Below are positions 10,420 to 28,790 of a stretch of DNA of 37,884 bases, in pieces (position 1 is the first letter of the stretch; every line of letters begins with the position of its first letter). The notes under the pieces were generated by a model. It was not told the origin of the DNA. It saw nothing but the letters and a program-made list of their open reading frames with translations, and did not search any database. This DNA comes from a virus. Its lineage: Duplodnaviria; Heunggongvirae; Uroviricota; Caudoviricetes. The translations under genes and the position numbers were made by a program. The stretch covers positions 1-37,884 of IMG/VR virus record IMGVR_UViG_2537562092_000002; one strand, written 5' to 3'.

Positions 10420-10907
10420 TTGCTTGTTATTTCTTCATTTTCATAAACGTTGGTTTGGGAGAAGGTGCTCCAGCTATTGGCGTTCCGTTCTTCTGGCCGT
10501 CCGCTGCAATGCCAAATACTGTAATCGACAGCTGGTCCAGTATGGTGTTTTTGAAGTTCAACGGGGCGAAATTTTCTGCCTCTGATTACCCTGTGCTGGC
10601 AGAAGTGTTTCCTTCGCTGGTATTACCTGAAGCCCGCGGTGATTTCATTCGTATCTGGGATGACGGGCGAGGTGCCGATGGTGGTCGCGAATTATTAAGC
10701 TGGCAGGAAGCTACAAACTTTTCTCAGTTTGCCGGGAATATAGGCGGAGGTGCGGGACACGCAATTAACTTTCATGATGGCATCGCCGGAAATCAGCCAG
10801 GGTTTTCACGATTTAATTTCACCAGTAACTCTGTGGGTGATGGTGTGAATTTTGTTGCTGTCAGACCGCGAAATATTGCATTTAACTTTCTTGTGAGGGC
10901 TAAATAA
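10410..10907 (+). CDS. Alternative tail-fibre C-terminal variable segment (Sv'), promoterless in this orientation
   Basis: Frame runs through the gix site (..NVGLGEGAPAIGVPFFWPS..); PFFWPS-type motif typical of Mu/P1/P2 fibre tips; no independent start expected. Confidence 0.55.
   Translation: MMPFACYFFIFINVGLGEGAPAIGVPFFWPSAAMPNTVIDSWSSMVFLKFNGAKFSASDYPVLAEVFPSLVLPEARGDFIRIWDDGRGADGGRELLSWQEATNFSQFAGNIGGGAGHAINFHDGIAGNQPGFSRFNFTSNSVGDGVNFVAVRPRNIAFNFLVRAK
10438..10463. other. Invertase crossover site (gix/hix-like), left boundary of invertible segment
   Basis: ttttcataaacgttggtttgggagaa fits the TTnTCnnAAACCnnGGTTTnnGAnAA pattern of hix/gix sites and is an inverted repeat of 12260..12285 (about 20/26). 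Confidence 0.65.
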
Positions 10908-11500
10908 TGAAACCTGTTTTTGATGAAAATGGGCTGGCGACAGTGCCGGGCGATATGCGTTGTTTTTATTATGATGCAGTAACGAATGAATATACTGGCT
11001 GGTCTGATGAATATATTAATACTGGCGTAAGTATGCCCGCCTGTTCCACTGGTATTGACCCGGGCGAATACATTCCGGGGAAAGTGGCAGTATTTACGGG
11101 TAAGGGATGGAGCCATGAAGAAGACCACCGCAATGAGACTGTTTACTCAATCGAAAATGGCGCAGCTGTTACAGTGGATTATATCGGTGCCATCAAAGAC
11201 GGTTATGTCACGCTTTCACCGTTAACGCCATACGATAAATGGGATGGTGAGAAATGGGTGACAGATACTGAGGCACAGCATAGTGCCGCAGTAGACGCAG
11301 CAGAAGCACAGCGCCAGTCGCTGATTGATGCTGCAATGGCTTCCATCAGTCTGATTCAACTGAAATTACAGGCCGGACGGAAGCTGACGCAGGCAGAAAC
11401 AACCCGACTTAACGCCGTGCTGGATTACATTGACGCGGTGACGGTAACAGATACCAGCACCGCGCCGGATGTCATCTGGCCTGAACTGCCGGAGGCGTAG
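10907..11500 (+). CDS. Alternative tail-fibre assembly chaperone (U'-like)
   Basis: Immediately follows Sv' with ATGA overlap; size and position match a Tfa/U-family chaperone inside the invertible segment. Confidence 0.55.
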   Translation: MKPVFDENGLATVPGDMRCFYYDAVTNEYTGWSDEYINTGVSMPACSTGIDPGEYIPGKVAVFTGKGWSHEEDHRNETVYSIENGAAVTVDYIGAIKDGYVTLSPLTPYDKWDGEKWVTDTEAQHSAAVDAAEAQRQSLIDAAMASISLIQLKLQAGRKLTQAETTRLNAVLDYIDAVTVTDTSTAPDVIWPELPEA

Positions 11501-11912
11501 GCCATTCAATATCTGGCGCACCGGAAGTATCGACCAGTTCCAGTGTGTCCAGATAATCCAGCCACAAATTATATTGCGCCAGTTCCTCACCTTTCAGGCG
11601 ACCAATCGCCGCTTTACCAGGCCATTGCTTACTGTTTATGTATTCGTTGACCTGATTAATCAATTGCTGCTTTTCCAGTTCGGCTGCGGCAATTTGTTCC
11701 TCATGAGTTGGCGGTGGAATATCAATCCATGCAGGCATTCCGTCGATGACGCCTCTGTATTTTCCTTCTGGTGCTTCCTTCATAAATTCGGCGGCAACAG
11801 TGTCGTCAATTTCGATTCCATCATCGGGCCATTCGCCGGATTCCTGATAAGCGATTTTAAGCTCCACAGGGAAAAACGCATTTTTATCGGCGCTGAAAAT
11901 ATATTTCTGCAT
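11472..11912 (-). CDS. Tail-fibre assembly chaperone (U-like), expressed orientation
   Basis: Follows the tail-fibre gene on the minus strand; its C-terminus overlaps the 3' end of the U' gene in convergent arrangement, as in the Mu G segment. Confidence 0.55.
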   Translation of the reverse strand: MQKYIFSADKNAFFPVELKIAYQESGEWPDDGIEIDDTVAAEFMKEAPEGKYRGVIDGMPAWIDIPPPTHEEQIAAAELEKQQLINQVNEYINSKQWPGKAAIGRLKGEELAQYNLWLDYLDTLELVDTSGAPDIEWPTPPAVQAR

Positions 11913-11914
11913 TT

Positions 11915-12628
11915 CTACCGTCCTATCGAAATATAACTGAATCTGTATTGCTGTGAGATATCACTGGTTGCCACATGCCACGCTGAATTACTGATATGTT
12001 CAAAATTTACAGACAAAACCTGCGGGGCAGGATTCGACGGGTCTGACTGAACGGCATCAGACATAACACTGACTGAAACCATCGGCTGATTAGGGAATGG
12101 TATAGGGAAGTGTCCACTGATAAAGCGGGTCGTGTTTCCTGAAAAAGTGCCAAACTGAACAATATATCCACCTGGTAGCCCGAACCATCCCGAACCAGAA
12201 GCGAATGCTCCCATATCCGGTATCTGATTATCTCCTGTGCCCACATCCCTTTTCGCCGCTTCTCCTAAACCAAGGTTTTCGAGAGCCGTTTTCACCGTGC
12301 CATCCGATTTGATATCGCCAAACGGATTCTTGCGGCTCAGGTATTCAACAGCAAACCCCGATCCCAGCAATTCAACAAAACCGGGCAGATCACCATTATC
12401 AAGCACATCCCGTTGCGTTTTATCACTTACAAACTGGGCCAGAGCTGCAGCAATAAAGCTGGCCTGCCGAATAACCTTATTGACTTGCGCACTGGATGCT
12501 TTCCCTGCTGTAAATCCGGATATAAGCGCAGGCAACGCTTCCCATTCCTCCTGCGACATAACATTGGCATTTCGATCAGTTGCAAACGCTTTAAAGTCAT
12601 TTTTCGCCATCAGAGTAATACTCCCCAT
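11915..12628 (-). CDS. Tail fibre (S-like): constant N-terminal part plus variable C-terminal part inside the invertible segment
   Basis: The gix site at 12260..12285 lies in-frame (..[13 protein letters not shown]..), so the C-terminal ~115 aa are exchangeable on inversion; follows a gp48-like gene. Confidence 0.6.
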
Positions 12629-13290
12629 GCCCCTACATCAAAACCACTGATGAATTCGTTATCCATATCAAAACCAAAAAATTTAGAGCCTTCCGATGGA
12701 GTTTCCACCGAAGGTGTTTCAATGCCCCCCGCCCATACCCCGGCGGCTTTTACTGTTAGATACCCCTGTTTAATTGCCGCAATTAACTCACGCGATACAT
12801 CTGAAATATCAGTATCAGGAAAGACCCAGACCGATATCGTCATGTCCTGGTTATCGACTATCTGCATTCGCAGCCCGGATCCTGCTGTTGCCGCGTCAAG
12901 AATTGCCGGAAGCGAATCATTCCGTCCGTCCCAGTTATTAATCGCAATCTTCGCTTTAAGAATGACACGATAAGTTTCATCGCTGAGATACATGTATCCT
13001 GAATCAGGATCGTATGGTCCCTGCCATACCCCCTGATCATATCCAAGCCCGTCGGTATCCCAGCTGAAATAGACACCTGAGATAGGCTGGCTGACAACAC
13101 GGCTACGTCCGATCCACAATCCAAGAATGTCAAGTTGCACACCAACCGCAGAGTCAATATCAAATGCAGTAATCAGCCCTCTGGTGGCAGCCGCAACATC
13201 AATAAGTGGCCGGGTCATCAGATCAACATGCGCAAGAAATTTAGGTTTGGTGGCGTGGTAGTTCGTGATTAGTTCGGTGTATTTGCTCAT
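12610..13290 (-). CDS. Phage tail/baseplate protein (Mu gp48 / P2 gpI-like)
   Basis: Position between the baseplate J-like gene and the tail fibre; 226 aa. Confidence 0.5.
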
Positions 13291-14486
13291 GACTCCACCG
13301 TTATAACGATATTTTCCGGGGTACAGGACGTAGATTCGTTGTATCTGATATCAATGTTTGATGACGACAAAGCCCCCGGGGATTTCCCAATCGTCAGTTC
13401 CTGAATATCGTAATAGCGTGCATTCCCGCCACTCACCACGCCAAGATTCGCCGGTGAGTAAATGCGACTTAAAAGGACCGAATCACCAATCATCAGACTA
13501 TTGATATAGTCGGAAATAGCCTGCTGGATCTGCTGCCCTATCTGTGAGGTATAACCCGTAAAAACTTTTAATTTAATCCGGGCGTAAACAGGCACATCAC
13601 TGGAACGCGAGAATTTGATTACATGGGGATTGCCGTATTTATCCGGAACCGTAACGGATGTTGTACCGTGAGTGGCTGTCCCCTGGCCTTTATTTCCTCT
13701 GATAGCCTGAGCAATATCCGTCACATCACCGCCATCCACAATTACAGCAACAGAGTGTGGCGGTAACCCGTTACCGTCCTCCGAACCAGTATCGTTTTCA
13801 TAGAGTTTGTGGCGGGTTACACCGGTAACATTAGAAACAGCACCATCCAGTGCTTCAAATGGGGTTATTGATGGCAACGCAACACTTTGCGACTGGCGGA
13901 TACGTAACTCCGCATCAGTTTCTGCTGGAGTGCCTACAGTAGCTGCAGCAGGATTGGTTACCGAAACCCAGCCACGGGTTGGCGTATTAATTTCAGTGAT
14001 AGTTCCAGCCAGCGCCGCCACTGCACCACTGACAGAACATTTTGCGGTCACCATCACTGTACCATCCACGCCGACCACCACTGAAGCAGGCAAACGCCAT
14101 ATCACATTATTACTGTCTTTCACGCTGCCATTAATGATGGTTGTTCCGGCAGTTCCTGTAAGAAGCAAATCAACCGTAGAATTCGTCGCGCCTTTACGTG
14201 AAATACCATTTATTTTCACGTTACTGGTCAGTGCAGCCCCATAGCCGGTTGCCGGTGAAAAACAGTTGTAGACAGTTATCGCCATATTATTGGCATCATG
14301 AATCGCCAGCGCCATCAGAGCCACCATCTGGCCGTCTTTGCTGTCCGGTTCGAGGTAGGCATCACTGCCATAAATCTGCTGAAAATAGCTAATCAGGGTG
14401 CTGAGTATCGTCTGATAATCAGGCGCACTGATCCCCTCCGCGGTTACCTTTGCAGATAAACCGAGAGAATCAAGGTTCAGAGCCAT
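13287..14486 (-). CDS. Baseplate J-like protein (Mu gp47 / P2 gpJ family)
   Basis: 399-aa ORF in conserved baseplate gene order, overlapping neighbours by 4 nt. Confidence 0.55.
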   Translation of the reverse strand: MALNLDSLGLSAKVTAEGISAPDYQTILSTLISYFQQIYGSDAYLEPDSKDGQMVALMALAIHDANNMAITVYNCFSPATGYGAALTSNVKINGISRKGATNSTVDLLLTGTAGTTIINGSVKDSNNVIWRLPASVVVGVDGTVMVTAKCSVSGAVAALAGTITEINTPTRGWVSVTNPAAATVGTPAETDAELRIRQSQSVALPSITPFEALDGAVSNVTGVTRHKLYENDTGSEDGNGLPPHSVAVIVDGGDVTDIAQAIRGNKGQGTATHGTTSVTVPDKYGNPHVIKFSRSSDVPVYARIKLKVFTGYTSQIGQQIQQAISDYINSLMIGDSVLLSRIYSPANLGVVSGGNARYYDIQELTIGKSPGALSSSNIDIRYNESTSCTPENIVITVES

Positions 14487-14839
14487 TACGCCTCCGATGT
14501 AACAGTCGTTATTCCATAGAGAGTGTCGATTTCAGCGGAAAACATGACACGTCGGGTCGTGGTATCCACCGTCGTATTGAAAGAGAGGATTGATTTAACG
14601 CCCTGCGTTTCCAGAATGCGTTTTCTGATCGCTAGGTTGTAAGTTTCCGGTTTTTGCCTGCCCAGCACAGACTGGAACCACGGAGTCCCTTCGGTAGTGT
14701 CGAGAAACCATTGCCCATACCACAATTCGAATCGCGTTTTCACAGCCTGTGCCACGGCCTCAGGCGAGTTAATCAGCCAGGTGTCATCACCGCTGCCAAA
14801 GGTGTAATCGCCATCGGCGTCTTCACGTCTGTATCGCAT
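14486..14839 (-). CDS. Baseplate wedge protein (Mu gp46 / P2 gpW / T4 gp25-like)
   Basis: 117-aa ORF translationally coupled between the spike and J-like genes. Confidence 0.5.
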   Translation of the reverse strand: MRYRREDADGDYTFGSGDDTWLINSPEAVAQAVKTRFELWYGQWFLDTTEGTPWFQSVLGRQKPETYNLAIRKRILETQGVKSILSFNTTVDTTTRRVMFSAEIDTLYGITTVTSEA

Positions 14840-15591
14840 CAGTTTACCCCGTCGGTACTGCTTCCACCGCGCTGAACACCGCCATGAGTGTGCGTATCAT
14901 CGATTGGCTTGCCGTTAGCCTTAACGCTCCCCAAGAACTCAACAGCACCAGTGATTTTTGAAGCCACGCCAGAAACAACAGACCCCACCATGCCTCCCAT
15001 CCAGGTTAACAGGCCATGAATGGTTACTTTCTCAGAAAAATCAGCCAGAGGGGCAACCACATCAAGGCCCCCCGGAGCGACAATTTTAATTTTCCTGGTA
15101 TCAGGATTAAGCTCAAAATAGGTGCTGCCGTCATCACTACGCAACTGTGTGGCACTGGTATTAATACCGCTAATCTTCCTTGCCTGCGACTGGGGACCGA
15201 CAATACAAAACGCATCCGATAAATCATGCATTCTGTCATCGACCGGCTCCTGTATCCCGCCACTCTGCCACCAGAAATCAATACAACGATCGGCAAAAAT
15301 CACCAAACATTCATCACCGGCTTTAACTGGAAACGTTAGCGTACAGCCTCCGCCACGCGGGAATACCACTGGCACATCCACCAGCAATGGGTAATTTTTG
15401 GTAATGCGGTTGCCGTCGTTATCAATTTCAACGTAACGGATAGCAGGCTGTACAACCGCCGTCACCGCATCAGGAGCGAATGACTGAACAATGCCAGGCA
15501 AGGCGACACGGATCTGGTTCTTTGTTGTTTCCCGTTCAGATTTAAATGTTTCGGCAAGGTCGCCGCTGCGGGTCTGGTCAGATACTGCCAT
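14839..15591 (-). CDS. Baseplate spike/assembly protein (Mu gp45 / P2 gpV-like)
   Basis: 250-aa ORF at the gpV position upstream of gp46/gp47-like genes. Confidence 0.5.
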   Translation of the reverse strand: MAVSDQTRSGDLAETFKSERETTKNQIRVALPGIVQSFAPDAVTAVVQPAIRYVEIDNDGNRITKNYPLLVDVPVVFPRGGGCTLTFPVKAGDECLVIFADRCIDFWWQSGGIQEPVDDRMHDLSDAFCIVGPQSQARKISGINTSATQLRSDDGSTYFELNPDTRKIKIVAPGGLDVVAPLADFSEKVTIHGLLTWMGGMVGSVVSGVASKITGAVEFLGSVKANGKPIDDTHTHGGVQRGGSSTDGVN

Positions 15592-15610
15592 TTAGTAGGC
15601 TCCAGAAAGC

Positions 15611-15636: not shown

Positions 15637-15655
15637 AATTTTGAGAAATTTCAGC

Positions 15656-16964: not shown

Positions 16965-17297
16965 TCACCCAGCCACTTTTTTACAAGGGAAAGATCCTAT
17001 GATTTTCGGCGCATCCATGCTGTTCTGCAGAAGCTGGACATTCAGGAAAGCTTTTCCGTTACGTTTCACAAACTCAAAGCCGTAATTGTTACCATCACGG
17101 GAAGGCATCAGGCCCATGTCCATTTTTATGTTTGAATAGTCACCATCTTTTCCCAGAAATTTTATCTTCTGTGATGTGACAGTTTCACCGTTAATAACAG
17201 TCATTCCGTCACCGGTCATCGTGTAGTTGCCGCACTGAATTGCAGCCATCGCCGGAGCAGTAACCATCATAACTAACGCCAAACATAACCGTTTCAT
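16965..17297 (-). CDS. Small secreted (signal-peptide) protein, ~110 aa
   Basis: Start MKRLCLALVMMVTAPAMAA is a typical Sec signal peptide; TAATG overlap with the stop of the baseplate-hub gene. Confidence 0.5.
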   Translation of the reverse strand: MKRLCLALVMMVTAPAMAAIQCGNYTMTGDGMTVINGETVTSQKIKFLGKDGDYSNIKMDMGLMPSRDGNNYGFEFVKRNGKAFLNVQLLQNSMDAPKIIGSFPCKKVAG

Positions 17298-18361
17298 TAA
17301 AGCCCTCTTTCCCTCGCTGATGAGGAAACAAGATCCGCCGCGCCACGCGCTTCGCACATCATATCCATGTACCACGCCTGGCCCCTTGTATCGCCAGTGT
17401 ACATAATCCCGCGCACAATATAAACGCCATCCGTTGCGATGCTGGCAGGTTGTGCTGTGGTGCCGCTGAGTGTGATATTTCCGTCCGTGTTCTGGTCGGT
17501 GCTCTGCCCACCAGCCATCGCAATATCATTGTTCGACAGCGCGGTGCGGTACACGGAAGCCTGATCCAGCTGAATAAGCCCGTTAACCCGGATGTTCGGA
17601 TTAATAAGCGCGCGGACGTTTACGCCGTTACCGATAGTCTGCTGCGGCATGCCAATAAGCCCGGTAGCGCTGTTGAGCACAATCGCTTCATGAACATATT
17701 CGTTATTCGCCACCATCTGGCGCTGACCGTCCACGAATTGCCATGTTGCGCCACATTGCCCGGCTACGTTATCCATTAGATGCCGCGTCATGCCAAAGAG
17801 TACCCGCCCCCGGGGGAATACAGTAGCAGGCATTTCAGGCGTCAGGCCTTCGGTCGCGCCTTTGGCCTCAAAGTCTTTCATCAGCGCACGGTTTACATCA
17901 GCGACCGTGTAACCGGCAGCCAGCGTCTGTGAGGTTATACTGGTGGCAAAAGCCAGATCAGTATCGGCTGCCTGAATCAGGACGTAGGAATCAACCGGGC
18001 TGTCTTTTCCTGTGACCGAGTAGCGAATTTCACCGCTGAAAATCAGTCCGTAGTTGCGGCCATCACTCTGGCCCACGTCCGCCGCATCAACCTCCCGCAC
18101 GGTCCCGACATCGCTTGCCGACACCTCCGGCGCGATACCGTCGTAACCCGCAATCAGACGCACTTTCGAAAACTCCTGCCCGGTAATTCGGTTCACAGTA
18201 TCTGCCGAGAGGTTATAAATTTTGATAGTCCCTACCCGGGACGCGCTGCTGATGTTGAACCAGTCGATCGTAAAGGTGACTTTGAAATCACTTAGCTCAA
18301 TTCCCTGACCGTTCCCGTCCACAAGCTGCAGCTCGAAATGTCTCATCCAGTTCTGTGTCAT
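17297..18361 (-). CDS. Baseplate hub / tail protein (Mu gp44 / P2 gpD-like)
   Basis: 354-aa ORF at the conserved position between the tape-measure-proximal genes and the baseplate spike. Confidence 0.5.
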   Translation of the reverse strand: MTQNWMRHFELQLVDGNGQGIELSDFKVTFTIDWFNISSASRVGTIKIYNLSADTVNRITGQEFSKVRLIAGYDGIAPEVSASDVGTVREVDAADVGQSDGRNYGLIFSGEIRYSVTGKDSPVDSYVLIQAADTDLAFATSITSQTLAAGYTVADVNRALMKDFEAKGATEGLTPEMPATVFPRGRVLFGMTRHLMDNVAGQCGATWQFVDGQRQMVANNEYVHEAIVLNSATGLIGMPQQTIGNGVNVRALINPNIRVNGLIQLDQASVYRTALSNNDIAMAGGQSTDQNTDGNITLSGTTAQPASIATDGVYIVRGIMYTGDTRGQAWYMDMMCEARGAADLVSSSARERGL

Positions 18362-18363
18362 GC

Positions 18364-18666
18364 TTACTCCGTTGATACCAGTAAATGACTGCGCCCGCCC
18401 AGGTCAGTTTTCGTGGGATAATCCTGTGTGTTGTCATCGCAGACCACCAACAGCTTAAAACCAAGTCCCATACAGGCGTACTGCGCCAGCAGGTCGGCAC
18501 CAGTGACGAGAGGAATACCGGAGATTACCGGCTCCCCTCTGTCGTTCTGCAGGTCCATAATCCAGTACAGATCGCGCCATATGATGCTAATCCGCCAGGT
18601 AACACCACCTAAGACGATGCTGAACTGCTGGTTGTCCGCTGTCAGCGGAATTTCCTGAATTGTCAT
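18364..18666 (-). CDS. Phage tail protein, 100 aa
   Basis: Tightly coupled ORF in the tail operon. Confidence 0.35.
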   Translation of the reverse strand: MTIQEIPLTADNQQFSIVLGGVTWRISIIWRDLYWIMDLQNDRGEPVISGIPLVTGADLLAQYACMGLGFKLLVVCDDNTQDYPTKTDLGGRSHLLVSTE

Positions 18667-19253
18667 TAGCCGCCCCCCAGTAATGACGCCACGTTACCCG
18701 TGATGCTTTTCAGCAGTGAAGTATCTGGAGGCTTTGTGGTTTTGTTGCCGCTATTCTGTACCGCCGACGTGCTGGCCCCTTCCTTCATGTTGGTTTTATC
18801 CGCGACGGTAATCTGCTGTGTCCGGGAGATAAGGACCTCCCTCAGGGTGAGGACGGCAGACAGGACGTTTTCGGTTGTCTTGTCCGTCGTCACTTCCAGC
18901 GCCCGGATCAACATGTTGCTGTACAGTCGTTTACCGGTTACCACATCGAAGGGGATACGGCTTTCCTGCAGATCCAGTAGCTCCTGATACGTCTGCTGAG
19001 GACTCAGGCCGAGCAGGCTGGTAGCCGTCAGATTACTGGCAAAATCCAGCAATGCGCCGCCACCGGCGAAACCAACCTCCATCACCACTTCTGACGGTTT
19101 TTTATAGGCATGATCAGCGACAGCGGCCCCAACCTCTACCGGATGCTCTGTTATTTCAAGCATATCTGTATGCTTCTCTGAAATAACAACACTGGGAACA
19201 ATCATTCCTATTTTTCTGCTCTGCTGATGAAAAAGTGTAGAGAGAATATCCAC
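18666..19253 (-). CDS. Phage tail/baseplate assembly protein, 195 aa
   Basis: Tightly coupled ORF directly downstream of the tape measure gene. Confidence 0.35.
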   Translation of the reverse strand: MDILSTLFHQQSRKIGMIVPSVVISEKHTDMLEITEHPVEVGAAVADHAYKKPSEVVMEVGFAGGGALLDFASNLTATSLLGLSPQQTYQELLDLQESRIPFDVVTGKRLYSNMLIRALEVTTDKTTENVLSAVLTLREVLISRTQQITVADKTNMKEGASTSAVQNSGNKTTKPPDTSLLKSITGNVASLLGGG

Positions 19254-21262
19254 TAACCCACCCTCACCTGATTACTTCGCATGACCTGAGCATTTGCAGA
19301 CTGTTGCCGACGTGCAACCTCATTACCGACAGCGTGCGGATCTCCGCCACCGTAAATGTGGTAGGTATTTTGCTGGTTAACCTCTGTCACTTTGCCACTA
19401 ATTCCCGCCACGGCAGCCTTATTAATCAGCTCTCGAGAATAGATATTTCTTCCATTCTCATGCTGGATAATGCTGCTCATCAATGCTGACATGGTTTGCG
19501 GATCGCTCATATTCAGGGCAGCCCGGGGATCCACTCCCAGTCGTTGCGATACAGCCCTGATATACGCAGTTGTGTTGTTATTATCAGACGCAGGTGCCCA
19601 GGTAGAGATAATTTTCTCCACACTGTTTATTCCCCGTCCGGCGTACAGCATTAACTGACGAGCAAGAGCCCGTAATCCATCAAAGGCAGTTTCAAATCTG
19701 GCAAATCGCCCGCCCGGGCGTTCAAGAGAAGCCCCTGCCTGACCAGCAAAATTAAGGTTTCCCGGATTGTTATTCCGTTCTCCTCGTTTCGTAGCCTGTG
19801 CATGTTGTTCCGGCTCATCATCACCAAACCAGCCGCGTACCGTCCGGCCCACACTGCGGGGATCAAATCCCCAGTGCTCTTTAATCCAGTCGGCAGTACT
19901 GTTAGCGCTGTCTGTAACCATCGGCATCGCTGACGGATTTTCGCTGCCCTGATTAAGTATCTGTTTGCCGATGCTGACGGCATCAGCCCAGCGGCCATCT
20001 TTGATAGCGTTGAGCAGGTCGGCGATCATGTTCAGCATTTTGCTGAATTCGCCCATCTGGTCGATGAAGTTGCTGAAATCCCACTTCAGGGACCATGATT
20101 TGGGGTCAATATTGAGCAGTTTCGCCAGCGCTTTCACCAGGTCGTTAACGGTCGTTTTAAGGTCACGAACCATCTTCAGCGCGGCATCAACCTCCGGTTT
20201 CCACTTGCCCCAGTCAATCAGGCTGTCGCCGCCTTCCTTCCAGGTCTGATAGTCCTCCCACAGGAGGGCAATCCCCGCCGCCAGCGCGGTAATGAGGCCA
20301 ATCGGCGACATCCAGAACGTACTGTTCAGAATGCGCAGCGCAATCGTCAGTGCGCCAAACAGCGAGATCAACTCCCGCGTTTGCTTATCCAGCGATTGCC
20401 ACCAGGTGATGAGGCCTGATGTCCCCTCAATCAGTCTGAAGAACAGCCGCCCGATAATATCCCCGAGCGCCAGAATGCCTTTTATGGCTTTCGTCAGGGT
20501 CTGCTCGATACGCGGGAAGTTGTCCAGGATATGGCGGCGCAGTGTGTCCAGCGAACCCGCAAGCCCACCCGCAAGATTAGAGCCGATTTTGTCACGGGCC
20601 ATGCCTGCCATCGCGCCAAACTCACGCAGGGAGGTCATAAATTTGTTGGAGCTTCTGGCCGCCTCGTCAGCATTGAAGCCGATAGCTTTCGCCATTGCGC
20701 TGTACTGCCCGGAGAAGCCACCCACACCGCGACGCATAGCCAACAGGGTATTTTCGTCAATGCCCAGCATCTGCGCATACTGGTTAGCACGGTAATACGG
20801 CATGTCGCTGAGCTTCTGGCCTACCCCTGTAAAAATAGCGGCCATGTCACGCATGTTACCGCTGGCATCCCGTGTCTGTACCCCCAGACGATTCAGAAAT
20901 CCCTCCGCCCCGGGATTATTACGAATAAACCGGGAGAGGTTTTCCAGAGAAGATCGCGCAGCGTCCACGCTGCCGCCAACCTGCGAAACCGCATAGCCAA
21001 TAGACTGAATTCCCTGGACTGTCGCGCCGGTGCGCTGTGACGCCCAGTAAAGATTATCCAGGCCGGAGGCGATCTTAGCCGTGAAGGCCACCACGGACAG
21101 CGCCGCTCCTTCGACGGCCAGCCCCATTTTGATGACATTTGCAGTTGTACCGGCGAGGACAGAACCGAATTTTTTCGCTCCTGCATCATCCACACTGAAG
21201 CCAAGCGAGACAAGGAAATCTTTAATAGTCTCGGCGTTCATTATCCTCTCTCCATTTCTCAA
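19253..21262 (-). CDS. Tail tape measure protein, possibly with a C-terminal muralytic domain
   Basis: 669-aa protein with Ala/Gly-rich, helix-prone repeats; the largest gene in the tail cluster, downstream of the tube and chaperone genes. Confidence 0.6.
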   Translation of the reverse strand: MRNGERIMNAETIKDFLVSLGFSVDDAGAKKFGSVLAGTTANVIKMGLAVEGAALSVVAFTAKIASGLDNLYWASQRTGATVQGIQSIGYAVSQVGGSVDAARSSLENLSRFIRNNPGAEGFLNRLGVQTRDASGNMRDMAAIFTGVGQKLSDMPYYRANQYAQMLGIDENTLLAMRRGVGGFSGQYSAMAKAIGFNADEAARSSNKFMTSLREFGAMAGMARDKIGSNLAGGLAGSLDTLRRHILDNFPRIEQTLTKAIKGILALGDIIGRLFFRLIEGTSGLITWWQSLDKQTRELISLFGALTIALRILNSTFWMSPIGLITALAAGIALLWEDYQTWKEGGDSLIDWGKWKPEVDAALKMVRDLKTTVNDLVKALAKLLNIDPKSWSLKWDFSNFIDQMGEFSKMLNMIADLLNAIKDGRWADAVSIGKQILNQGSENPSAMPMVTDSANSTADWIKEHWGFDPRSVGRTVRGWFGDDEPEQHAQATKRGERNNNPGNLNFAGQAGASLERPGGRFARFETAFDGLRALARQLMLYAGRGINSVEKIISTWAPASDNNNTTAYIRAVSQRLGVDPRAALNMSDPQTMSALMSSIIQHENGRNIYSRELINKAAVAGISGKVTEVNQQNTYHIYGGGDPHAVGNEVARRQQSANAQVMRSNQVRVG

Positions 21263-21418
21263 TGCGCCGCTGGTTATCCGCTTTTACCGCCAGATGGTCA
21301 TTCAAGAGAGCAATGTCGTACAAATCGACAGAGCCATCTTTAAGTGCTGTATAAGGAATTAACCCGGCGTCAACCGGATTGAGAAGGTAGGACAGCCCGT
21401 CCGGCAGGCTGTTAAACG

Positions 21419-21871
21419 TCAGCCCTGTTGCAGGCTCTGCGTCGTGCTGGTAAGGGGTGTAGGCAAAAAATTTCCCAGCGAATCGGCGACCACCCGCGCC
21501 ACCAGCTGCAGCATGACCAGCAGGTCAATATCATCAAACATCAGTTCGCCCTGGGTAAATACCGGCACCCATCCGTCCATATGACGCCGCGATACCACCG
21601 CAAGACAGGGATGAATAATCGCATCGGTGTCATCTTCGGTCAGGGAAGACAGTTCCTCAGCGATACGCGGGAGCATGGTTTCAAACACCGGTTTTAACTG
21701 CTCGAATTTCACGGTGTCGATTTTGCCGTCAGCAGGCAAACGGGAGCGAATGCTCCCGAAATCTGACATCATTCCCGCCAGTACCGGCAGAAGTTTGCGG
21801 GTCACTTTCAGCTGGTCAAAAACGCTGAGTTTTGCCACGCGATATTTCACGCCTTTGATTTCGAATTCCAT
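21419..21871 (-). CDS. Tail assembly chaperone
   Basis: 150-aa ORF between the tube and tape measure genes, followed by a 156-bp apparent gap. Confidence 0.4.
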   Translation of the reverse strand: MEFEIKGVKYRVAKLSVFDQLKVTRKLLPVLAGMMSDFGSIRSRLPADGKIDTVKFEQLKPVFETMLPRIAEELSSLTEDDTDAIIHPCLAVVSRRHMDGWVPVFTQGELMFDDIDLLVMLQLVARVVADSLGNFLPTPLTSTTQSLQQG

Positions 21872-21874
21872 GTA

Positions 21875-22315
21875 TTAAAACTCCCCGAGAACCTGGTCAA
21901 TCTTGCCGCAGTCAAACACCCACGGCATCGTATTACCGGTTTTAGCGTTGGCATTATCCGGTTGTTTCTGGAACGCAACACTGCGTGCCGTGATGATGTC
22001 GCCGCTGACCTTGTTGCGGATCACGATAACGTTATTCCCCCATGTGGCAGAAGACTGGCTCTGTGCGTTATACGCCAGCGACAATTTTTTATTTGTCGGT
22101 GATGTCTTCAGAAGGTTAACGGTAATCGTCCCGCTTTTATCTGCATGGAGGCTGTGCATCACTTCACCATCAGCACCGATGGTCATGGTGTTTTTAGGAC
22201 CGCCCATCGCAACCACAATCCCCTCTTCAGAACTTGCAGAACCGTACCCGAGGTCAATCGAACCGGTCGGGCCGGTCAGCGTCGCAGTGACATCCATAAA
22301 AGAATAGGTAGACAT
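21875..22315 (-). CDS. Tail tube protein
   Basis: 146-aa ORF immediately downstream of the sheath gene. Confidence 0.5.
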   Translation of the reverse strand: MSTYSFMDVTATLTGPTGSIDLGYGSASSEEGIVVAMGGPKNTMTIGADGEVMHSLHADKSGTITVNLLKTSPTNKKLSLAYNAQSQSSATWGNNVIVIRNKVSGDIITARSVAFQKQPDNANAKTGNTMPWVFDCGKIDQVLGEF

Positions 22316-22325
22316 TCACTTCCCC

Positions 22326-23471
22326 TTAGCGAACAACGTTAATCTGTACGTCAGCGTAATGAACCGCGCCTGCAAGTTTTATTGCAGCCTGAATCACCGG
22401 AGCCTTACGGGCTTCACGTTCTGATTGTGCCTGTTCATCCAGCGGCTGGGCGTATACGTAATAACCTTTGGGCAGTGTGTCACCTGATGACAACTGACCA
22501 AGGTCGCCCCCGTTCCATACGCCCGGAGCAATCAGTCCATTCTGAACGGCCTGATCCAGTGATTTTTCAACATTTGATAACAGTCGGGTAATACCGGCTT
22601 CAGTCTGGGGAACTTTCGTGGTGCTGGTATAAAGCAGGTTATAGAGGTTGGTCTGCACATAATTCTGTAACCAGTCCAGGCCGTGGCGTTCATCAAAGAA
22701 ATCGCCGTTAGCCATCACTCCCTGCTGGAGGATAGCCGTATCATTCTGGTAGTACACGAATACATTGCAGTTTTTTGCATCAAGTGCCGATGCCTGGCTG
22801 ACTGTCAGTGTTTCATACCCGACACCCGGCTCCTGCTTAAACTTGAGCGTAATCGCGGTATTACTGCCATTGAAATTAACCGTGAATACCCGGCCAAATG
22901 CAGATAACGCAGCGTATTTATTACCCGATGAATACTGAATAAAACTGCGTGAATATCCGGCGGTTTTCAGTTTTGATGCCAAATCATCGCTGGATGCAGT
23001 CTGCAGGCATTTATCATCGCTTGTCGTAATCGCCAGAATACGGCTTACAGAAGAGGATTCGATCGCCGCAGCCACTTTCAGCCAGTCTGCATCCGGAATA
23101 TCTTCATCGTCTGCAATCCCCAGCCCATACCATGAAGTATAATCGAGCATGGCATTCACAGCCTGCTCCAGCGTCTCAGGCGTGGCCTGTTCGCTGTCAC
23201 CCTTCGTTTTCACCCAACGACCAACAAAAACCTCCTGAGGTTTCGGTGATTGTGAGAAAAACACCTGCGCAGCCTTATATTCTGGTGATTCCACGCCAAA
23301 ATCTTTTCCAATATCTTCCGCGGCAGAATAACGGCGAATGCGCTCACTTACCGGAATGATTGTGGACGGGCCGAGAATGAGTAATGCACCAAAATTTCGC
23401 CCTGATGCTGCACGCGGCGACATGATCACATCAACATTAACAACGTTTGATACAGGCAAGCCCTGTGCCAT
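22326..23471 (-). CDS. Contractile tail sheath protein
   Basis: 381-aa ORF heading the tail cluster, followed by tube, chaperone and tape measure. Confidence 0.55.
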
Positions 23472-23474: not shown

Positions 23475-24755
23475 TTAATCTCCGAAAAAGATGACTGGTG
23501 CTTCCACCAGCGATTTAATACCGTACTCGCGCACAACCTTCCGGCGCAGGCGCACCGTCATATCGTAGCGGCGGACCCATTGCTGATTAATAAATTCAGG
23601 GAAGGGGGTCAGACCTGTGTAATCGCCAAGAGACAGCCCCAGCGCATTCAGTGCTGCATTGTTCTGCGGTACAGATATACCGTCACGAAACCGGGACGCA
23701 TACACCATCCCCGCCGGACCATAAAACGAAGCCATACACTCAATCGTTTCATGCCGCCAGAGCTTAGAGCCATCATCGGTCTGTCTGGTGAATGCCGGAC
23801 TGTCATCACCTGACCATCCGATACCCAGTTTGATATGCGCATCAACGGCAGCCTGTACCCATTCGGATGGAATCAGGACGCCTTCCGCTGATGCGCTGTA
23901 GTTCAGATCAAGTTCCTGTGCCACCACCACCGGATTATCGATTTTCTCGCATTCCCTGCGATACCACTCTTCATCCTTGCGAGGATCATCCCGCCAGTGG
24001 AATGTGAATACCGGTATCTTCCCGCCATGACGCTTCTGAGCGAACGGGTTAGCCATGCCGTTAACTGAACTCAGGTCGATACGGCAACGCGTCGTTTGTG
24101 ACAACGCCGCATCAATCAGCAGAGGACGCTGAAGGAATGCAGCCTCATCAACCAGATAAAGCGTGGTACGGTCACCACGACCAATATTATCGCCAGCCTC
24201 GCCTTTGATAACGGCACCAGTTTCAGGAAACTCAACACGCATATATGGCGCGTGCTTCTTCTCACTCCACGAACCGCGAAACTCTACAGGTAGCGTTTCC
24301 ACGAACTTGCGCGCCTTCCAGAACAATGCTTTCGGGTCACCAGTGCTGTCGACGTATTCCTCTTTACGGGAGCCAAAACCGATAACCATTTCTTTGTTGA
24401 AGAGACAAAGCGAGCATGCCAGTCCGATCGCGGTCCAACTGAGCCCCATTTCACGGGATTTTTCGGTAATACCATTCTCCCGATTGCTCCAGCGTTCCAT
24501 AATCCAGTGGATCCACTCCTCCTGCTTAGGGAAGAGTAAAAACGGAATGGTCACCGGCAGGCCATAATCAATATTACGCGGGTCCGTTGTCATGCCCCAG
24601 TCGATGATGAACTGAGCCGGATTGGTTCGGTAAAACTGTTTTAGTGCAGGCAATATTTCAGGATTCTGGCGAATGCGCTGTAGGCGTTCCATCCGCCATT
24701 CAAAAACCATCTGGTAATCAGGATGTTTAAAATCGAAGGGGAATGGTAACGGCAT
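23475..24755 (-). CDS. Terminase large subunit (TerL), possibly C-terminally truncated or fused
   Basis: Deviant Walker A-like [11 protein letters not shown] and Walker B-like [10 protein letters not shown]; follows terS. Only ~220 aa remain after Walker B, and the next gene is the tail sheath rather than a portal. Confidence 0.6.
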
Positions 24756-24757
24756 AC

Positions 24758-27156: not shown

Positions 27157-27371
27157 TATTCACCTCTCGCAGCCTTTCTTCTGTCTTCTCTGATTTTGAA
27201 GTACAGATTTGTCAGATAGGTGAGAAAGCCCAACACAAGGCTTCCAAGCACCCCAATCGCAGCCCACTGTGATGGACTGACCTGATCCAACCACTGCAAA
27301 AACCAGTATCCCGCACTACCAGCGGATGTTCCGTAGGCAATGCCAGTTGAGATTTTGTCCATTGATTTCAT
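27156..27371 (-). CDS. S: Pinholin (phage 21 S-type), dual-start holin/antiholin
   Basis: [71 protein letters not shown] matches S21 (71/68-aa forms from M1/M4). Confidence 0.85.
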
Positions 27372-27489: not shown

Positions 27490-27565
27490 TGGTGCTGGTT
27501 AACGGACTTGAACCGCTACCCATTCGCTTACAAGGCGACCGCTCTACCATTGGAGCTAAACCAGC
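27490..27565 (-). tRNA. Phage-encoded tRNA, anticodon UGU (Thr) by manual folding
   Basis: Reverse complement GCTGGTTTAGCTCCAATGGTAGAGCGGTCGCCTTGTAAGCGAATGGGTAGCGGTTCAAGTCCGTTAACCAGCACCA folds as a cloverleaf (7-bp acceptor, GGTTCAAGTCC T-arm, loop CUUGUAA). Confidence 0.6.
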
Positions 27566-27570
27566 ATATT

Positions 27571-27645
27571 TGGCGGGACAGCGTGGACTCGAACCACGAT
27601 AAGAAGGTTAACAGCCTTCCGTAATGACCTTTATACGACTGACCC
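27571..27645 (-). tRNA. Phage-encoded tRNA, anticodon GUU (Asn) by manual folding; slightly degenerate D-arm
   Basis: Reverse complement GGGTCAGTCGTATAAAGGTCATTACGGAAGGCTGTTAACCTTCTTATCGTGGTTCGAGTCCACGCTGTCCCGCCA: perfect anticodon and T stems, loop CUGUUAA, one acceptor mismatch. Confidence 0.5.
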
Positions 27646-27649
27646 AAAT

Positions 27650-27691
27650 AAAAAAAGCCACCGTTGCAACTTAAGAGTCACTAACGGCAGC
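27650..27691 (-). terminator. tR-prime-like terminator downstream of Q (late-promoter leader region)
   Basis: Minus strand gctgccgtt(17-nt loop)aacggtggc followed by T7; located between Q and the tRNA/lysis genes as in lambdoid PR-prime/qut/tR-prime units. Confidence 0.45.
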
Positions 27692-27736
27692 TTATGCGAA
27701 TAGTGTTGCTCATTTGCTCAATGATGTCAACACGTT

Positions 27737-28282
27737 CTATGCTACATGTTTAATTTTCTCTACACGTTTCCGGTTTTTAAACGCACTATCCAGAACCGGG
27801 TAAATCATAAACAACGAGGCATTGAGGATTTCGTCAACTTCCCGTCGACAGGTTGCGAGCGATGGTTTTTGAATGCGCCCGCCGCCCCGGCATAACATCT
27901 TGCGAGGTCTTGCGACGCGATGATAGTAAGATGCAATGGCGTGCTTGGAAGAGCCGTGGGCGTAGTAGCTGAGGAGGATGCCAAAGGCTTTCTTGTCAAT
28001 GTACATGACGGAATCGACGACCTGAGAAATCAACATTCCATCATCATCATTACACATTGGCCTTGTCATAACTCTTCCCGGCTCTACGCTCTCCATGAAC
28101 TTAGCTATTACGCTGCTCATGCGCTTTTCCAGACGACCTGAATAAACCCATGCGCCCCACAGTTCAAGCCAGCCATTCAGCCACTCGTGCTGTTCTTTGG
28201 TGAGGTTTAGTTCTCTTATGCCCATGCGCCTTCTCCCTTGTGATCTGGAATGGTTTTTACTGAGAACGTCATGCGGCCTCAC
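27737..28282 (-). CDS. Q: Late-gene antiterminator Q (phage 21/82-type); start may be MGIRELNL at ~28225
   Basis: ...[27 protein letters not shown]... and Cys-rich C-terminal region resemble lambdoid Q proteins; sits upstream of the late terminator and lysis genes. Confidence 0.75.
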
Positions 28283-28790
28283 TTCTGCTGTTTCGCAGGT
28301 CTTTGAGTTTCTGCTGATACTCCGCCTTGATGGCCCTGCACTCTTCGACAGTCCAGCGATGGCGGTTATGGTTTGATTCGATTTCGTCTACTGCTTCCTG
28401 CCCGATGCGGCTAATCAGTTCGACGCGATACGGAACGAGATTTCCGCTTTTGTGCTGGTTGCACACCACGCATTGCTTGTGAATATTGCGTTCATCAAAT
28501 CGGAGTTGAGGTGCCGCAGCAGTTGTCCGGTAATGTCCGGCATCCCACTGAGCAGACGTGAGCGTTCCGCAAGAGATACATGGTAAGTCGCGGTCTCTTT
28601 CTCTGATGAAGGCGTTTACGGCTTGTTGGGCTTGTTTAATCCAGTAACTGCGGGGCTTTAAGGCGAGTTTTCTAATCTTAAGTTTATCTTTCTGTTCCTT
28701 CCACTGAGAGACTGCTGCATCGCTAATGCCTAACGCTTTAGCTACCGCACGCTGGGTTCCGAAGTGGTCGATAACATCTTTCTTGTACAT
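28269..28790 (-). CDS. In-frame fusion: P22-type Cro N-terminus (~31 aa) joined to lambda NinG/Rap C-terminal ~140 aa (deletion product)
   Basis: [32 protein letters not shown] matches P22 Cro; [43 protein letters not shown]...NSRSEAA matches the lambda NinG C-terminus. Confidence 0.75.

What the first reader, a model, noticed from the sequence alone, without database searches (positions are those of the whole stretch)
10438..28790. Streamlined repressor-Q-lysis-tail circuit resembles a domesticated tailocin
Deletions have removed replication genes (cro fused to ninG) and head genes, yet the SOS-cleavable C2-type repressor, PR, Q, the late terminator, a complete lysis cassette and a full contractile tail with fibre switching and chaperones all appear intact. 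After repressor cleavage, PR transcription would run through the short cro-ninG fusion straight into Q, triggering tail production and lysis without DNA replication or packaging. This is the functional logic of R-type pyocin-like tailocins. It remains possible that this is simply a recently decayed prophage.
Basis: inference. Interest (0 to 1): 0.6.

Follow-up and report, generated by a model that had tools for sequence, protein, structure and literature searches.

The report
Recently decayed prophage, not a tailocin
This is a lambda-like prophage in one E. coli clone that recently lost its replication and head genes; it keeps its damage-inducible switch, lysis genes and most tail genes, but the head deletion also broke the cap protein that every contractile tail needs, so it looks like ordinary prophage decay and not a domesticated killing device.

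Summary
The window is E. coli H494. It holds a ~30 kb prophage at thrW (6606-36516). Relatives are intact ~43 kb lambdoid myophages with an E217/Pam3-type tail.

**Confirmed**
- There are two microhomology deletions: 4.47 kb (cro codon ~32 to ninG) and 7.37 kb (TerL codon ~312 to the tail terminator).
- The imm21/P22-C2-type repressor, PR with its operators, Q, a hairpin terminator after Q, and the pinholin/SAR-endolysin/Rz/Rz1 cassette are intact.
- The sheath-to-fibre genes and a Pin-type invertible fibre segment with two chaperones are also intact.
- The cro-ninG deletion removed the tR2-like terminator, so PR should read straight into Q.

**Not confirmed**
- The tail is not complete. The head deletion ends inside the tail terminator gene.
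- That deletion removes about 65 N-terminal residues, including invariant ones, a helix and two strands. The remainder is fused to 312 aa of TerL.
- Pyocin R2, diffocin and monocin all keep this cap or collar fold.

**Population evidence**
- Both junctions are absent from 5,426 complete E. coli genomes.
- About 20 contigs carry each junction, and those read are 99.8-100% identical to the window, so this is one recent clone.
- There is no post-deletion divergence on which selection could be measured.

**Verdict:** a recently decayed, probably still lysis-competent prophage. A functional incipient tailocin is possible but unlikely (~0.1).

The parts
6606..6668 (.). Distal att copy (duplicated 3' part of thrW); left end of the prophage
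   Evidence: 98.4% match to the thrW-proximal att region of L001 and to window 36423-36486
7316..8362 (-). Cargo: S1/trypsin-like peptidase with a weak ABC-3C CTD12-like N-terminus
   Evidence: Pfam Trypsin_2 E 1.7e-17; weak PADLOC matches
8946..9770 (+). Cargo: PD-T4-3 anti-phage defence gene homologue (GIY-YIG)
   Evidence: PADLOC PD-T4-3 E 8e-140; Pfam LEM-3_GIY-YIG
9829..10383 (-). Pin/Gin-type serine DNA invertase
   Evidence: Pfam Resolvase plus HTH_7; corresponds to pinE of L001
10438..12285 (.). Invertible fibre segment bounded by 26-bp pix-like sites (10438-10463 and 12260-12285). It holds the alternative fibre C-terminus (10464-10907, +), the alternative chaperone (10907-11500, +), the active chaperone (11472-11912, -) and the active fibre C-terminus.
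   Evidence: 21/26 matching inverted sites; both reading frames pass through N(L/V)GLGE; Caudo_TAP in both chaperones
11915..12628 (-). Tail fibre (constant N-terminus plus currently joined gp53-like C-terminus)
   Evidence: Pfam Gp53-like_C
12610..15591 (-). Baseplate genes: DUF2612 (12610-13290), baseplate J (13287-14486), gp25-like sheath initiator (14486-14839), spike (14839-15591)
   Evidence: Pfam; same lengths as in L001
15656..17297 (-). Three-gene low-GC moron block inside the baseplate operon: 142 aa (weak HEPN), 243 aa, and a 110-aa protein with a signal peptide
   Evidence: No Pfam hit; HEPN_IX E 0.0094; GC 0.43; no synonymous differences from L001 in the 142-aa and 243-aa genes; the 110-aa gene was not compared
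17297..21395 (-). Hub (E217 gp41-like, 17297-18361), Pam3 gp18-like (18364-18666), Dit-like (18666-19253), tape measure with lytic transglycosylase (19253-21241), DUF6889 (21222-21395)
   Evidence: Pfam; L001 annotation and gene lengths
21419..23471 (-). Tail assembly chaperone (21419-21871), tube (21875-22315), sheath (22326-23471)
   Evidence: Pfam Phage_TAC_15, Phage_Tube_PhiTE, E217_gp31_N
23475..24755 (-). In-frame fusion of TerL residues 1-~312 to tail terminator residues ~66-182; deletion junction at 23820-23826 (GATA microhomology)
   Evidence: blastn versus L001; PF23961 profile positions 36-150 of 153 retained; lost N-terminal conserved residues
24758..25309 (-). Terminase small subunit, intact
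   Evidence: Pfam Terminase_2; identical to L001
26204..27371 (-). Lysis cassette: Rz (26204-26662) with embedded Rz1 (26257-26442), SAR endolysin (26659-27156), class II holin (27156-27371)
   Evidence: Pfam Phage_lysis, Rz1, Phage_lysozyme, Phage_holin_2_1; holin and endolysin identical to L001
27490..27645 (-). tRNA-Thr(TGT) and tRNA-Asn(GTT) in the late leader
   Evidence: ARAGORN
27648..27730 (-). Late promoter region (TTGACA at 27730-27725) and tR'-like hairpin 27693-27655 followed by U7
   Evidence: Sequence; RNA fold -31.6 kcal/mol, z -3.58
27737..28225 (-). Lambda-type antiterminator Q, intact
   Evidence: Pfam Phage_antitermQ; identical to L001
28269..28790 (-). cro'-'ninG fusion (Cro residues 1-32 including the HTH, joined to NinG lacking ~61 N-terminal residues); junction at 28695-28699 (TTCCT microhomology)
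   Evidence: Pfam P22_Cro plus NinG
28791..28870 (.). OR/PR/PRM region with P22/21-type 18-bp operators; PR -35 at 28848 and -10 at 28821
   Evidence: Sequence; promoter scan 10/12
28871..29521 (+). imm21/P22 C2-type LexA-like repressor (Ala94-Gly95, Ser132, Lys174/175)
   Evidence: 98.6% identical to phage 21 / DE3 C2; HTH_3 plus Peptidase_S24
29834..36426 (+). PL operon: N (29834-30106), cIII, kil, gam, bet, exo and others, xis-like HTH gene, integrase (35263-36426); sieB (30123-30704) on the opposite strand
   Evidence: Pfam listing; L001 annotation
36441..36516 (-). thrW tRNA-Thr(CGT), the integration site, next to proA
   Evidence: ARAGORN; L001 annotation

Best explanation
This is a defective prophage of the SEN34 / vB_EcoM-611R5 type: lambdoid regulation with an E217/Pam3-type contractile tail. 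It sits at thrW in the E. coli H494 clone. Two independent microhomology-mediated deletions disabled it very recently.

**Predicted behaviour on DNA damage** (inferred from intact parts; nothing here is experimentally shown)
1. RecA-stimulated self-cleavage of the imm21-type repressor opens PR and PL.
2. The PR transcript crosses only the 173-codon cro'-'ninG fusion before Q. The nutR/tR1 interval and the tR2-like terminator are deleted, so Q expression should be N-independent, as in lambda nin5.
3. Q lets RNA polymerase read through the tR' hairpin into two tRNAs, then the pinholin / SAR-endolysin / Rz-Rz1 genes, terS, the TerL-terminator fusion and the tail operon.
4. The cell lyses without replicating the element or making capsids.
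5. Baseplate, tube and sheath proteins are made. The hexameric terminator that caps the tube and anchors the last sheath ring has lost its conserved N-terminal third and carries a 312-residue TerL domain.
6. The expected products are therefore uncapped, unstable or mechanically uncoupled tails, not bactericidal particles.

**Why it persists:** recency is sufficient. The benefit of immunity (CI, SieB) and defence cargo (PD-T4-3) may add to it. Selection for tail particles is not needed to explain retention.
For: **Deletions and fusions**
- They were mapped against an intact relative.
- The microhomologies (GATA; TTCCT) indicate illegitimate recombination.

**Terminator identity**
- Pfam PF23961.
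- A profile hit to the Pam3 terminator, E 1.9e-4.
- The AlphaFold2 model (pLDDT 83) matches the phiTE, XM1, Pam3 and E217 terminator/gateway proteins. It also matches the pyocin R2, diffocin and monocin collar/cap proteins.

**Terminator damage**
- Profile positions 1-35 are lost.
- Invariant S11, G15, P19, W37 and W53 are lost.
- Helix 27-42, strand 49-51 and most of strand 67-77 are lost.

**Why the terminator matters**
- In E217 the gateway is the only sheath-tube link after contraction (PMC10329688).
- In phiTE the terminator donates strands to the top sheath rings (PMC11972413).
- Loss of the AlgoCIS cap module gives aberrant particles (PMC8894135).

**Recency and clonality**
- The junctions occur in 0 of 5,426 complete genomes.
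- None of the 457 genomes carrying this sheath/terminase type has the sheath within 2 kb of terS.
- The head junction is absent from JGI metagenome contigs and from GTDB species representatives.
- Sixteen loci fetched with the carriers are 99.8-100% identical to the window; one of them is the window's own H494 record, and L003 matches only over 11.6 kb.

**Regulatory and lysis parts** are intact.
Against: - No late gene other than the terminator is interrupted.
- The TerL-terminator fusion is in frame. It keeps the C-terminal extension that, in E217, binds the sheath, so residual cap function cannot be excluded by sequence alone.
- The element is not confined to one isolate. It appears in H494, a second NCBI assembly and at least 15 gut-metagenome or SRA assemblies.
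- One contig (L003) shows the same head deletion joined to a different Q/lysis module. If real, the head-less state survived a recombination event.
- Engineered head-less temperate phages do yield killing particles (PMC10670071).
Confidence: 0.72

Rival explanations
1. Incipient functional tailocin. SOS induction gives Q-driven synthesis of DNA-free contractile tails and lysis. The particles kill competing E. coli, with host range switched by the Pin invertase. The TerL-terminator fusion, or a terminator supplied by another prophage, caps the tails.
For: - The repressor, PR, Q, tR', lysis and sheath-to-fibre set is complete and uninterrupted.
- The terminators between PR and Q are removed.
- Replication and capsid genes are absent.
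- The fusion is in frame and keeps the sheath-binding C-terminus.
- Deleting head genes from temperate phages suffices to make tailocins in the laboratory (PMC10670071).
- The clone is seen in many gut samples.
Against: - The cap/terminator fold, kept intact in pyocin R2, diffocin, monocin and PVC, has lost its conserved N-terminal third here.
- There is no conservation outside one clone.
- There is no post-deletion divergence, so there is no evidence of selection.
- pN/pS of 0.077 against an intact phage reflects the phage-phase history, not the time since the deletion.
- Integrase, xis, recombination genes, TerS and a TerL fragment remain, unlike established tailocin loci.
Confidence: 0.12
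2. The element is kept for its host-beneficial cargo and for the SOS-inducible lysis module: immunity and exclusion (CI, SieB), the PD-T4-3 defence gene, the S1 peptidase, and lysis-mediated release of vesicles or public goods. On this view the tail genes are passengers awaiting decay.
For: - The PD-T4-3 match is strong, E 8e-140.
- SieB and the imm21 repressor are intact.
- The same slot in the relative L001 holds other defence-like genes.
- Lysis modules of cryptic prophages such as DLP12 are reported to affect OMV production (title and abstract of PMC7918800).
Against: - There is no evidence that selection has acted at all, since all copies are identical.
- Intact relatives carry comparable cargo, so cargo does not explain the specific deletions.
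- This reading is compatible with the best explanation and is not exclusive of it.
Confidence: 0.1
3. Helper-dependent element. A co-resident intact phage of the same family supplies TerL, capsid, neck and terminator in trans. The element's intact TerS and tail/fibre genes would then allow its packaging or the formation of mixed particles.
For: - TerS is intact and identical to that of intact relatives.
- Some E. coli genomes carry two copies of this phage type, with up to 4 places per genome.
- The Red recombination genes are intact.
Against: - No second prophage of this type can be seen in the window, and the rest of the H494 genome was not examined.
- The element cannot replicate, because O and P are deleted.
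- No satellite-type hijacking genes were found.
- Its imm21 repressor would not be lifted by a heteroimmune helper.
Confidence: 0.04

Closest known systems
Defective/cryptic lambdoid prophages of E. coli (e.g. DLP12, Rac and Qin in K-12; the defective prophage pool of O157 Sakai, PMC2669165)
   Same: - Integrated at a tRNA site with int and att retained.
- Internal deletions have removed essential replication or morphogenesis genes.
- The Q/lysis and immunity modules are often left functional.
   Different: - Decay here is much younger than in the K-12 cryptic prophages: only two deletions, and every remaining gene is still full length.
- The tail module is a contractile E217/Pam3-type tail, not a lambda-type siphovirus tail.
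Intact temperate lambdoid myophages: Escherichia phages vB_EcoM-611R5/606R2, the SM107 thrW prophage, Yersinia phage YP3, Salmonella phage SEN34
   Same: - The tail module is 97% identical in DNA to vB_EcoM-611R5 and about 80% to SEN34.
- Gene order is the same from terS to the invertase.
- The thrW site is the same as in SM107.
   Different: - Missing here: cII, O, P, ren and ninB-F.
- Also missing: the TerL C-terminal half, portal, head morphogenesis, scaffold, cement, the major capsid gene and four neck genes.
- Also missing: the terminator N-terminus.
R-type pyocins and other R-tailocins (pyocin R2, diffocin, carotovoricin Er)
   Same: - It works like one on paper: a LexA-like cleavable repressor, a positive late regulator, a lysis cassette and a contractile tail without a head or replication.
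- As in carotovoricin Er, a DNA invertase switches the fibre C-terminus (Nguyen 2001, cited in PMC10598620).
   Different: - The late regulator is an antiterminator (Q), not an activator such as PrtN (own knowledge).
- The collar/cap protein, intact in solved tailocin structures, is truncated here.
- The locus is not conserved across the species.
- It still has int/xis, Red genes, terS and a terL fragment.
[quoted passage not shown]
   Same: An inducible prophage lacking head function that releases tail particles on induction.
   Different: - The engineered deletions remove only the capsid or portal gene and leave replication intact.
- Here the deletion runs into the terminator gene, and replication is also lost.
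Lambda nin5 deletion (N-independent Q expression; own knowledge)
   Same: Removal of the terminators between PR and Q makes late gene expression independent of N.
   Different: Here the deletion is larger. It also removes cro function, cII and the O and P replication genes.

Membership tests
R-type tailocin (phage tail-like bacteriocin) | Complete set of contractile-tail structural genes (sheath, tube, tape measure, baseplate, spike, fibres, chaperones) | tested here: met
   All are present and uninterrupted; 11 of 16 match the L001 gene length exactly and 5 differ by 1-8 residues.
R-type tailocin (phage tail-like bacteriocin) | Intact tube/sheath terminator (collar or cap) that closes the tail and couples sheath to tube | tested here: not met
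   The PF23961 terminator has lost profile positions 1-35, five invariant residues, one helix and about two strands. It is fused to TerL residues 1-312. The same fold forms the collar/cap of pyocin R2, diffocin and monocin.
R-type tailocin (phage tail-like bacteriocin) | No capsid, portal or genome-replication genes | tested here: met
   The 7.37-kb and 4.47-kb deletions remove them. terS and a terL 5' fragment remain.
R-type tailocin (phage tail-like bacteriocin) | Stress-inducible regulator plus a dedicated lysis cassette in the same cluster | tested here: met
   imm21-type CI with a cleavage site and catalytic dyad, PR, Q, tR', holin, SAR endolysin and Rz/Rz1. This rests on sequence only.
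R-type tailocin (phage tail-like bacteriocin) | Locus conserved and vertically inherited across strains, with purifying selection since loss of the head | tested here: not met
   The junctions are absent from 5,426 complete E. coli genomes, JGI metagenome contigs and GTDB species representatives. Carriers are 99.8-100% identical, so there is no post-deletion divergence.
R-type tailocin (phage tail-like bacteriocin) | Production of DNA-free bactericidal particles | not testable with these tools
   This needs induction, EM and killing assays.
Defective (cryptic) lambdoid prophage | Integrated at an att site with an integrase and duplicated att core | tested here: met
   thrW at 36441-36516, int at 35263-36426, second att copy at 6606-6668.
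Defective (cryptic) lambdoid prophage | Collinear homology to viable phages, with essential genes missing or broken | tested here: met
   97-99.9% identical to L001 or vB_EcoM-611R5 on either side of the two deletions. O, P, TerL, portal, the major capsid gene and the terminator are lost or truncated.
SEN34 / vB_EcoM-611R5-like lambdoid myophages (E217/Pam3-type simple contractile tail) | Sheath E217_gp31, tube PhiTE-type, Pam3 gp18-like, Dit-like and PF23961 terminator genes, under lambdoid Q/lysis control | tested here: met
   Pfam assignments and DNA identity to these phages.

The most novel reading that the evidence does not exclude
The element is a tailocin caught within evolutionary moments of its birth. 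Two random deletions instantly rewired a temperate myophage into an SOS, Q, lysis and head-less-tail circuit. The in-frame TerL-terminator fusion, or a terminator from another prophage, still caps the tails, so the H494 clone releases invertase-switchable killing particles. That would provide a natural first step in the prophage-to-tailocin route. A recent review says there is still little knowledge of that route (PMC10598620).
Probability: 0.1. Interest if true: 0.6.

Novelty: new member of a known kind. Interest (0 to 1): 0.2.

Why it matters
As it stands, this is an ordinary example of early prophage decay. It is useful mainly as a caution: a prophage with head and replication genes deleted and the tail apparently intact is not evidence of a tailocin. 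The cap gene sits at the head-tail boundary and is easily clipped by the deletion that removes the head.

If induction of H494 nevertheless produced killing particles, the element would be a rare natural snapshot of the first step of tailocin domestication. It would also be an E. coli R-type tailocin based on an E217/Pam3-type tail under lambdoid Q control.

Tried and rejected
1. **Repressor truncation.** I took the gene table of L009/L011 (repressor called as 119 aa, traR gene not called) to mean a truncated repressor in some carriers. That would have implied a non-lethal circuit. Direct comparison showed these loci are 100% identical to the window, so the difference is only gene calling.
2. 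**dN/dS of tail genes.** Against the intact relative, pN/pS is 0.077. I rejected this as a test of domestication. The 5% synonymous divergence predates the deletions, and the carriers show no substitutions.
3. **Single-sequence PDB search with the terminator.** It gave spurious WD40 matches. A profile and a fold search were needed.
4. **AlphaFold model of the fusion protein.** I considered it and did not run it. The only alignment available forces terminator N-termini onto unrelated TerL residues, which would bias the model. AF2 also does not report destabilisation.
5. **Default inverted-repeat search.** It missed the recombination sites. A targeted 26-mer comparison found them.
6. **Empty thrW site.** E. 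coli F8 did not provide one; it carries another island there.
7. **Exact-match scans for the head junction.** Scans of JGI metagenome contigs and GTDB species representatives found nothing.

Full report
**Origin and extent.** The two fusion proteins are recorded from Escherichia coli H494 (GCA_000242035.1, scaffold JH590606.1), and locus L002 from that record is 100% identical to the window. The element is a prophage integrated at thrW next to proA. tRNA-Thr(CGT) lies at 36441-36516 and the integrase at 35263-36426. A second copy of the att core lies at 6606-6668. The prophage therefore spans about 6606-36516 (~30 kb), which is wider than the coordinates given. To the left is an unrelated CP4-like island with an IS1 end and a YfjI/DUF3987 gene.

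**What the intact relative looks like.** The best complete-genome matches cover the query only when about 12 kb of extra DNA is allowed. The SM107 prophage (L001) sits at the same thrW site and is a ~43 kb lambdoid phage with this gene order:
- int, xis, exo, bet, gam, kil, cIII, N, cI
- cro, cII, O, P, ren, ninB-G, Q
- two tRNAs, holin, endolysin, Rz
- terS, terL, portal, head morphogenesis, scaffold, cement, major capsid
- four neck genes, tail terminator, sheath, tube, chaperone, tape measure, baseplate, fibre
- invertible segment, pin, cargo

Named phages with the same tail module are Escherichia phages vB_EcoM-611R5/606R2 (97%), Yersinia phage YP3 (82%) and Salmonella phage SEN34 (80%). 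Pfam places the tail in the E217/Pam3/phiTE group of simple contractile tails.

**The two deletions (observation confirmed).** blastn against L001 gives two clean breakpoints.
- *Replication deletion.* Window 28695/28696 joins L001 34402 (inside ninG) to 38870 (inside cro), a 4,467-bp deletion. It produces ORF 28269-28790(-). This carries Cro residues 1-32, including the helix-turn-helix, fused to NinG lacking about 61 N-terminal residues. Pfam finds P22_Cro plus NinG.
- *Head deletion.* Window 23820-23826 joins L001 21632 (inside the terminator gene) to 29003 (inside terL), a 7,370-bp deletion. It produces the in-frame ORF 23475-24755(-), 426 aa.
- *Junction microhomology.* Both junctions have only 4-5 bp of microhomology (GATA; TTCCT). 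That is the signature of illegitimate recombination.

**The regulatory circuit (confirmed at sequence level).**
- The repressor (28871-29521) is 98.6% identical to the phage 21 / lambda imm21 / DE3 "C2" repressor. It has HTH_3 and Peptidase_S24 domains and, read directly from the sequence, Ala94-Gly95, Ser132 and Lys174/175.
- The 80-bp interval to the cro start holds 18-bp P22/21-type operators and a 10/12 promoter, TTGACT-16-GATAAT.
- No minus-strand terminator is predicted between PR and Q.
- In L001 the deleted interval contains a strong tR2-like terminator (36422-36399) and the cro-cII interval.
- It follows by inference from lambda nin5 biology (own knowledge) that Q expression should be N-independent here.
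- Q (27737-28225) is identical to that of L001.
- Directly after its stop come a TTGACA hexamer (27730-27725) and a 39-nt hairpin followed by U7 (27693-27648; -31.6 kcal/mol, z -3.6).
- Then follow tRNA-Asn and tRNA-Thr, a class II holin, an endolysin whose hydrophobic N-terminus reads as a SAR (signal-anchor-release) domain of the phage 21 type (read from the sequence), and Rz with embedded Rz1. All are full length.

**The tail (mostly, but not wholly, intact).** From sheath to fibre no gene is interrupted. Eleven of the sixteen have exactly the L001 length; the fibre, hub, secreted moron, DUF6889 and assembly chaperone differ by 1-8 residues.
- The invertible segment is real. Its 26-bp pix-like sites at 10438-10463 and 12260-12285 match in 21 of 26 positions.
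- Both reading frames run through N(L/V)GLGE. Inversion would therefore fuse the constant fibre N-terminus in frame to the alternative C-terminus.
- Each fibre C-terminus is followed by its own Caudo_TAP chaperone, and the serine invertase is intact.

**The decisive flaw.** The head deletion does not stop at the head. It ends inside the gene immediately upstream of the sheath gene. That gene is the tail terminator:
- Pfam assigns it to PF23961, Phage_tail_terminator_9.
- A profile of 31 homologues hits the Pam3 terminator (E 1.9e-4).
- An AlphaFold2 model of the intact protein has mean pLDDT 83.
- That model matches the terminator or gateway proteins of phiTE, XM1, Pam3, Sf14, Bas63, Pa193 and E217.
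- It also matches the cap or collar proteins of monocin, pyocin R2, diffocin and PVC, and lambda gpU.

The fusion keeps only profile positions 36-150 of 153. It loses:
- the invariant residues S11, G15, P19, W37 and W53, and many near-invariant ones;
- helix 27-42, strand 49-51 and most of strand 67-77 of the model.

In place of these it carries 312 residues of TerL.

The published structures show why this matters:
- In E217 the gateway/terminator sits on the last tube ring. Its C-terminal strand is the only sheath-tube connection after contraction (PMC10329688).
- In phiTE the terminator donates strands to the top sheath rings, and tails are completed before joining heads (PMC11972413).
- Removing the cap adaptor of AlgoCIS gives particles without cap and distal sheath ring, bare tube-baseplate complexes and jammed contracted particles (PMC8894135).

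The statement "full contractile tail intact" is therefore not correct. The missing part is one that all solved tailocins retain.

**Is the architecture conserved?** It is not.
- Neither junction occurs in any of 5,426 complete E. coli genomes. In contrast, 364-1,404 of those genomes carry the separate halves.
- Of 457 complete genomes with this sheath/terminator or terL/terS, none has the sheath within 2 kb of terS.
- The head junction is absent from JGI metagenome contigs and from GTDB species representatives.
- Exact-protein look-ups find the TerL-terminator fusion on 22 contigs and the cro-ninG fusion on 18. These come from H494, one other NCBI assembly, and human-gut metagenome and SRA-run assemblies.
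- Sixteen of the seventeen loci fetched with these carriers (one being the window's own H494 record) are 99.8-100% identical to the window: none or one difference in the tail region over 11-21 kb. The exceptions are a 13-SNP patch in the endolysin/Rz region of one metagenome contig, and contig-end noise.
- This is one recent clone, not a conserved locus.
- No substitutions have accumulated since the deletions, so selection on the tail genes after head loss cannot be measured. The low pN/pS (0.077) against the intact SM107 phage reflects earlier phage history.

**One loose end.** Contig L003 has the identical head deletion and 11.6 kb of identical tail DNA. Left of window 25991 it continues into a different Q (PF03589), holin and pRha module. 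Position 25991 is also a mosaic boundary between the window and L001. L003 may therefore be a true recombinant or a chimeric low-coverage metagenome assembly. I could not decide between these.

**Most likely working.** The steps below are inferred from intact parts. None is experimentally shown.
1. DNA damage triggers repressor self-cleavage.
2. PR is derepressed.
3. Q is expressed without needing N.
4. RNA polymerase reads through tR'.
5. The lysis and tail proteins are made.
6. The cell lyses without replication, excision-dependent amplification or capsids.
7. Tails assemble up to the tape-measure length but lack a proper cap.

I therefore expect unstable or mechanically uncoupled tails, not killing particles. 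Retention needs no special explanation at this age. Immunity, SieB and the PD-T4-3 defence gene (E 8e-140) may add a benefit.

**Comparison with known systems.** The element works, on paper, like an R-type tailocin: a cleavable repressor, a positive late regulator, lysis genes and a head-less contractile tail. It even has carotovoricin-like fibre inversion. It fails two membership criteria tested here, an intact cap and conservation with selection, and particle production cannot be tested with these tools. It meets every criterion of a young defective lambdoid prophage of the SEN34 / vB_EcoM-611R5 type. Engineered capsid or portal deletions of temperate phages do give tailocins (PMC10670071). 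This particular deletion simply went one gene too far.

**Verdict.**
- Novelty: a new member of a known kind.
- Interest: low (0.2).
- The most novel reading still open is a just-born functional tailocin whose TerL-terminator fusion still caps the tail, with probability about 0.1.

Noticed in passing
window 6669-9770: The prophage arm between the distal att copy and the invertase is a variable cargo slot. Here it holds a strong PD-T4-3 defence homologue (8946-9770, PADLOC E 8e-140). It also holds an S1/trypsin-like peptidase with a weak ABC-3C CTD12-like N-terminus (7316-8362). In the relative SM107 the same slot holds FRG-domain, AAA ATPase and HNH genes.
   Followed up: partly
window 15656-17297 (- strand): A three-gene, low-GC (0.43) moron block is inserted in the baseplate operon. 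It encodes a 110-aa protein with a signal peptide, a 243-aa protein with no family hit, and a 142-aa weakly HEPN-like protein. The 243-aa and 142-aa genes have zero synonymous differences from SM107, while the flanking spike and gp25-like genes have pS 0.11-0.19. This suggests a recent horizontal sweep of the cassette among these phages.
   Followed up: partly
L003 1-4570 (ENA ERZ1755928): An identical head-deletion junction and tail DNA are joined to a different late-control module: NinH, a Ser/Thr phosphatase, a PF03589-type Q, a holin_3 holin and pRha. This is either a real recombinant of the head-less element or a chimeric metagenome assembly at a shared terS-proximal mosaic boundary.
   Followed up: partly
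window 27490-27645 (- strand): tRNA-Asn(GTT) and tRNA-Thr(TGT) sit in the late leader between the tR' hairpin and the holin gene. The intact relative has the same arrangement.
   Followed up: no
window 28269-28790 (- strand): The cro'-'ninG fusion retains the whole helix-turn-helix of the P22/21-type Cro (residues 1-32). A residual operator-binding or dominant-negative activity is conceivable but was not tested.
   Followed up: no
window 1-6605: A CP4-like island lies next to the prophage: an IS1 end at 1-381, a YfjI/DUF3987 protein at 1060-2511, and unknown 539-aa and 198-aa proteins. It is 99.9% identical to E. coli F8, so thrW carries tandem integrated elements.
   Followed up: partly
window 25986-26211: The KilA-N domain gene found between Rz and the plus-strand ORF in SM107 (769 bp) is replaced here by an unrelated 225-bp stretch. 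This is a third structural difference from the intact relative, at a mosaic boundary.
   Followed up: no
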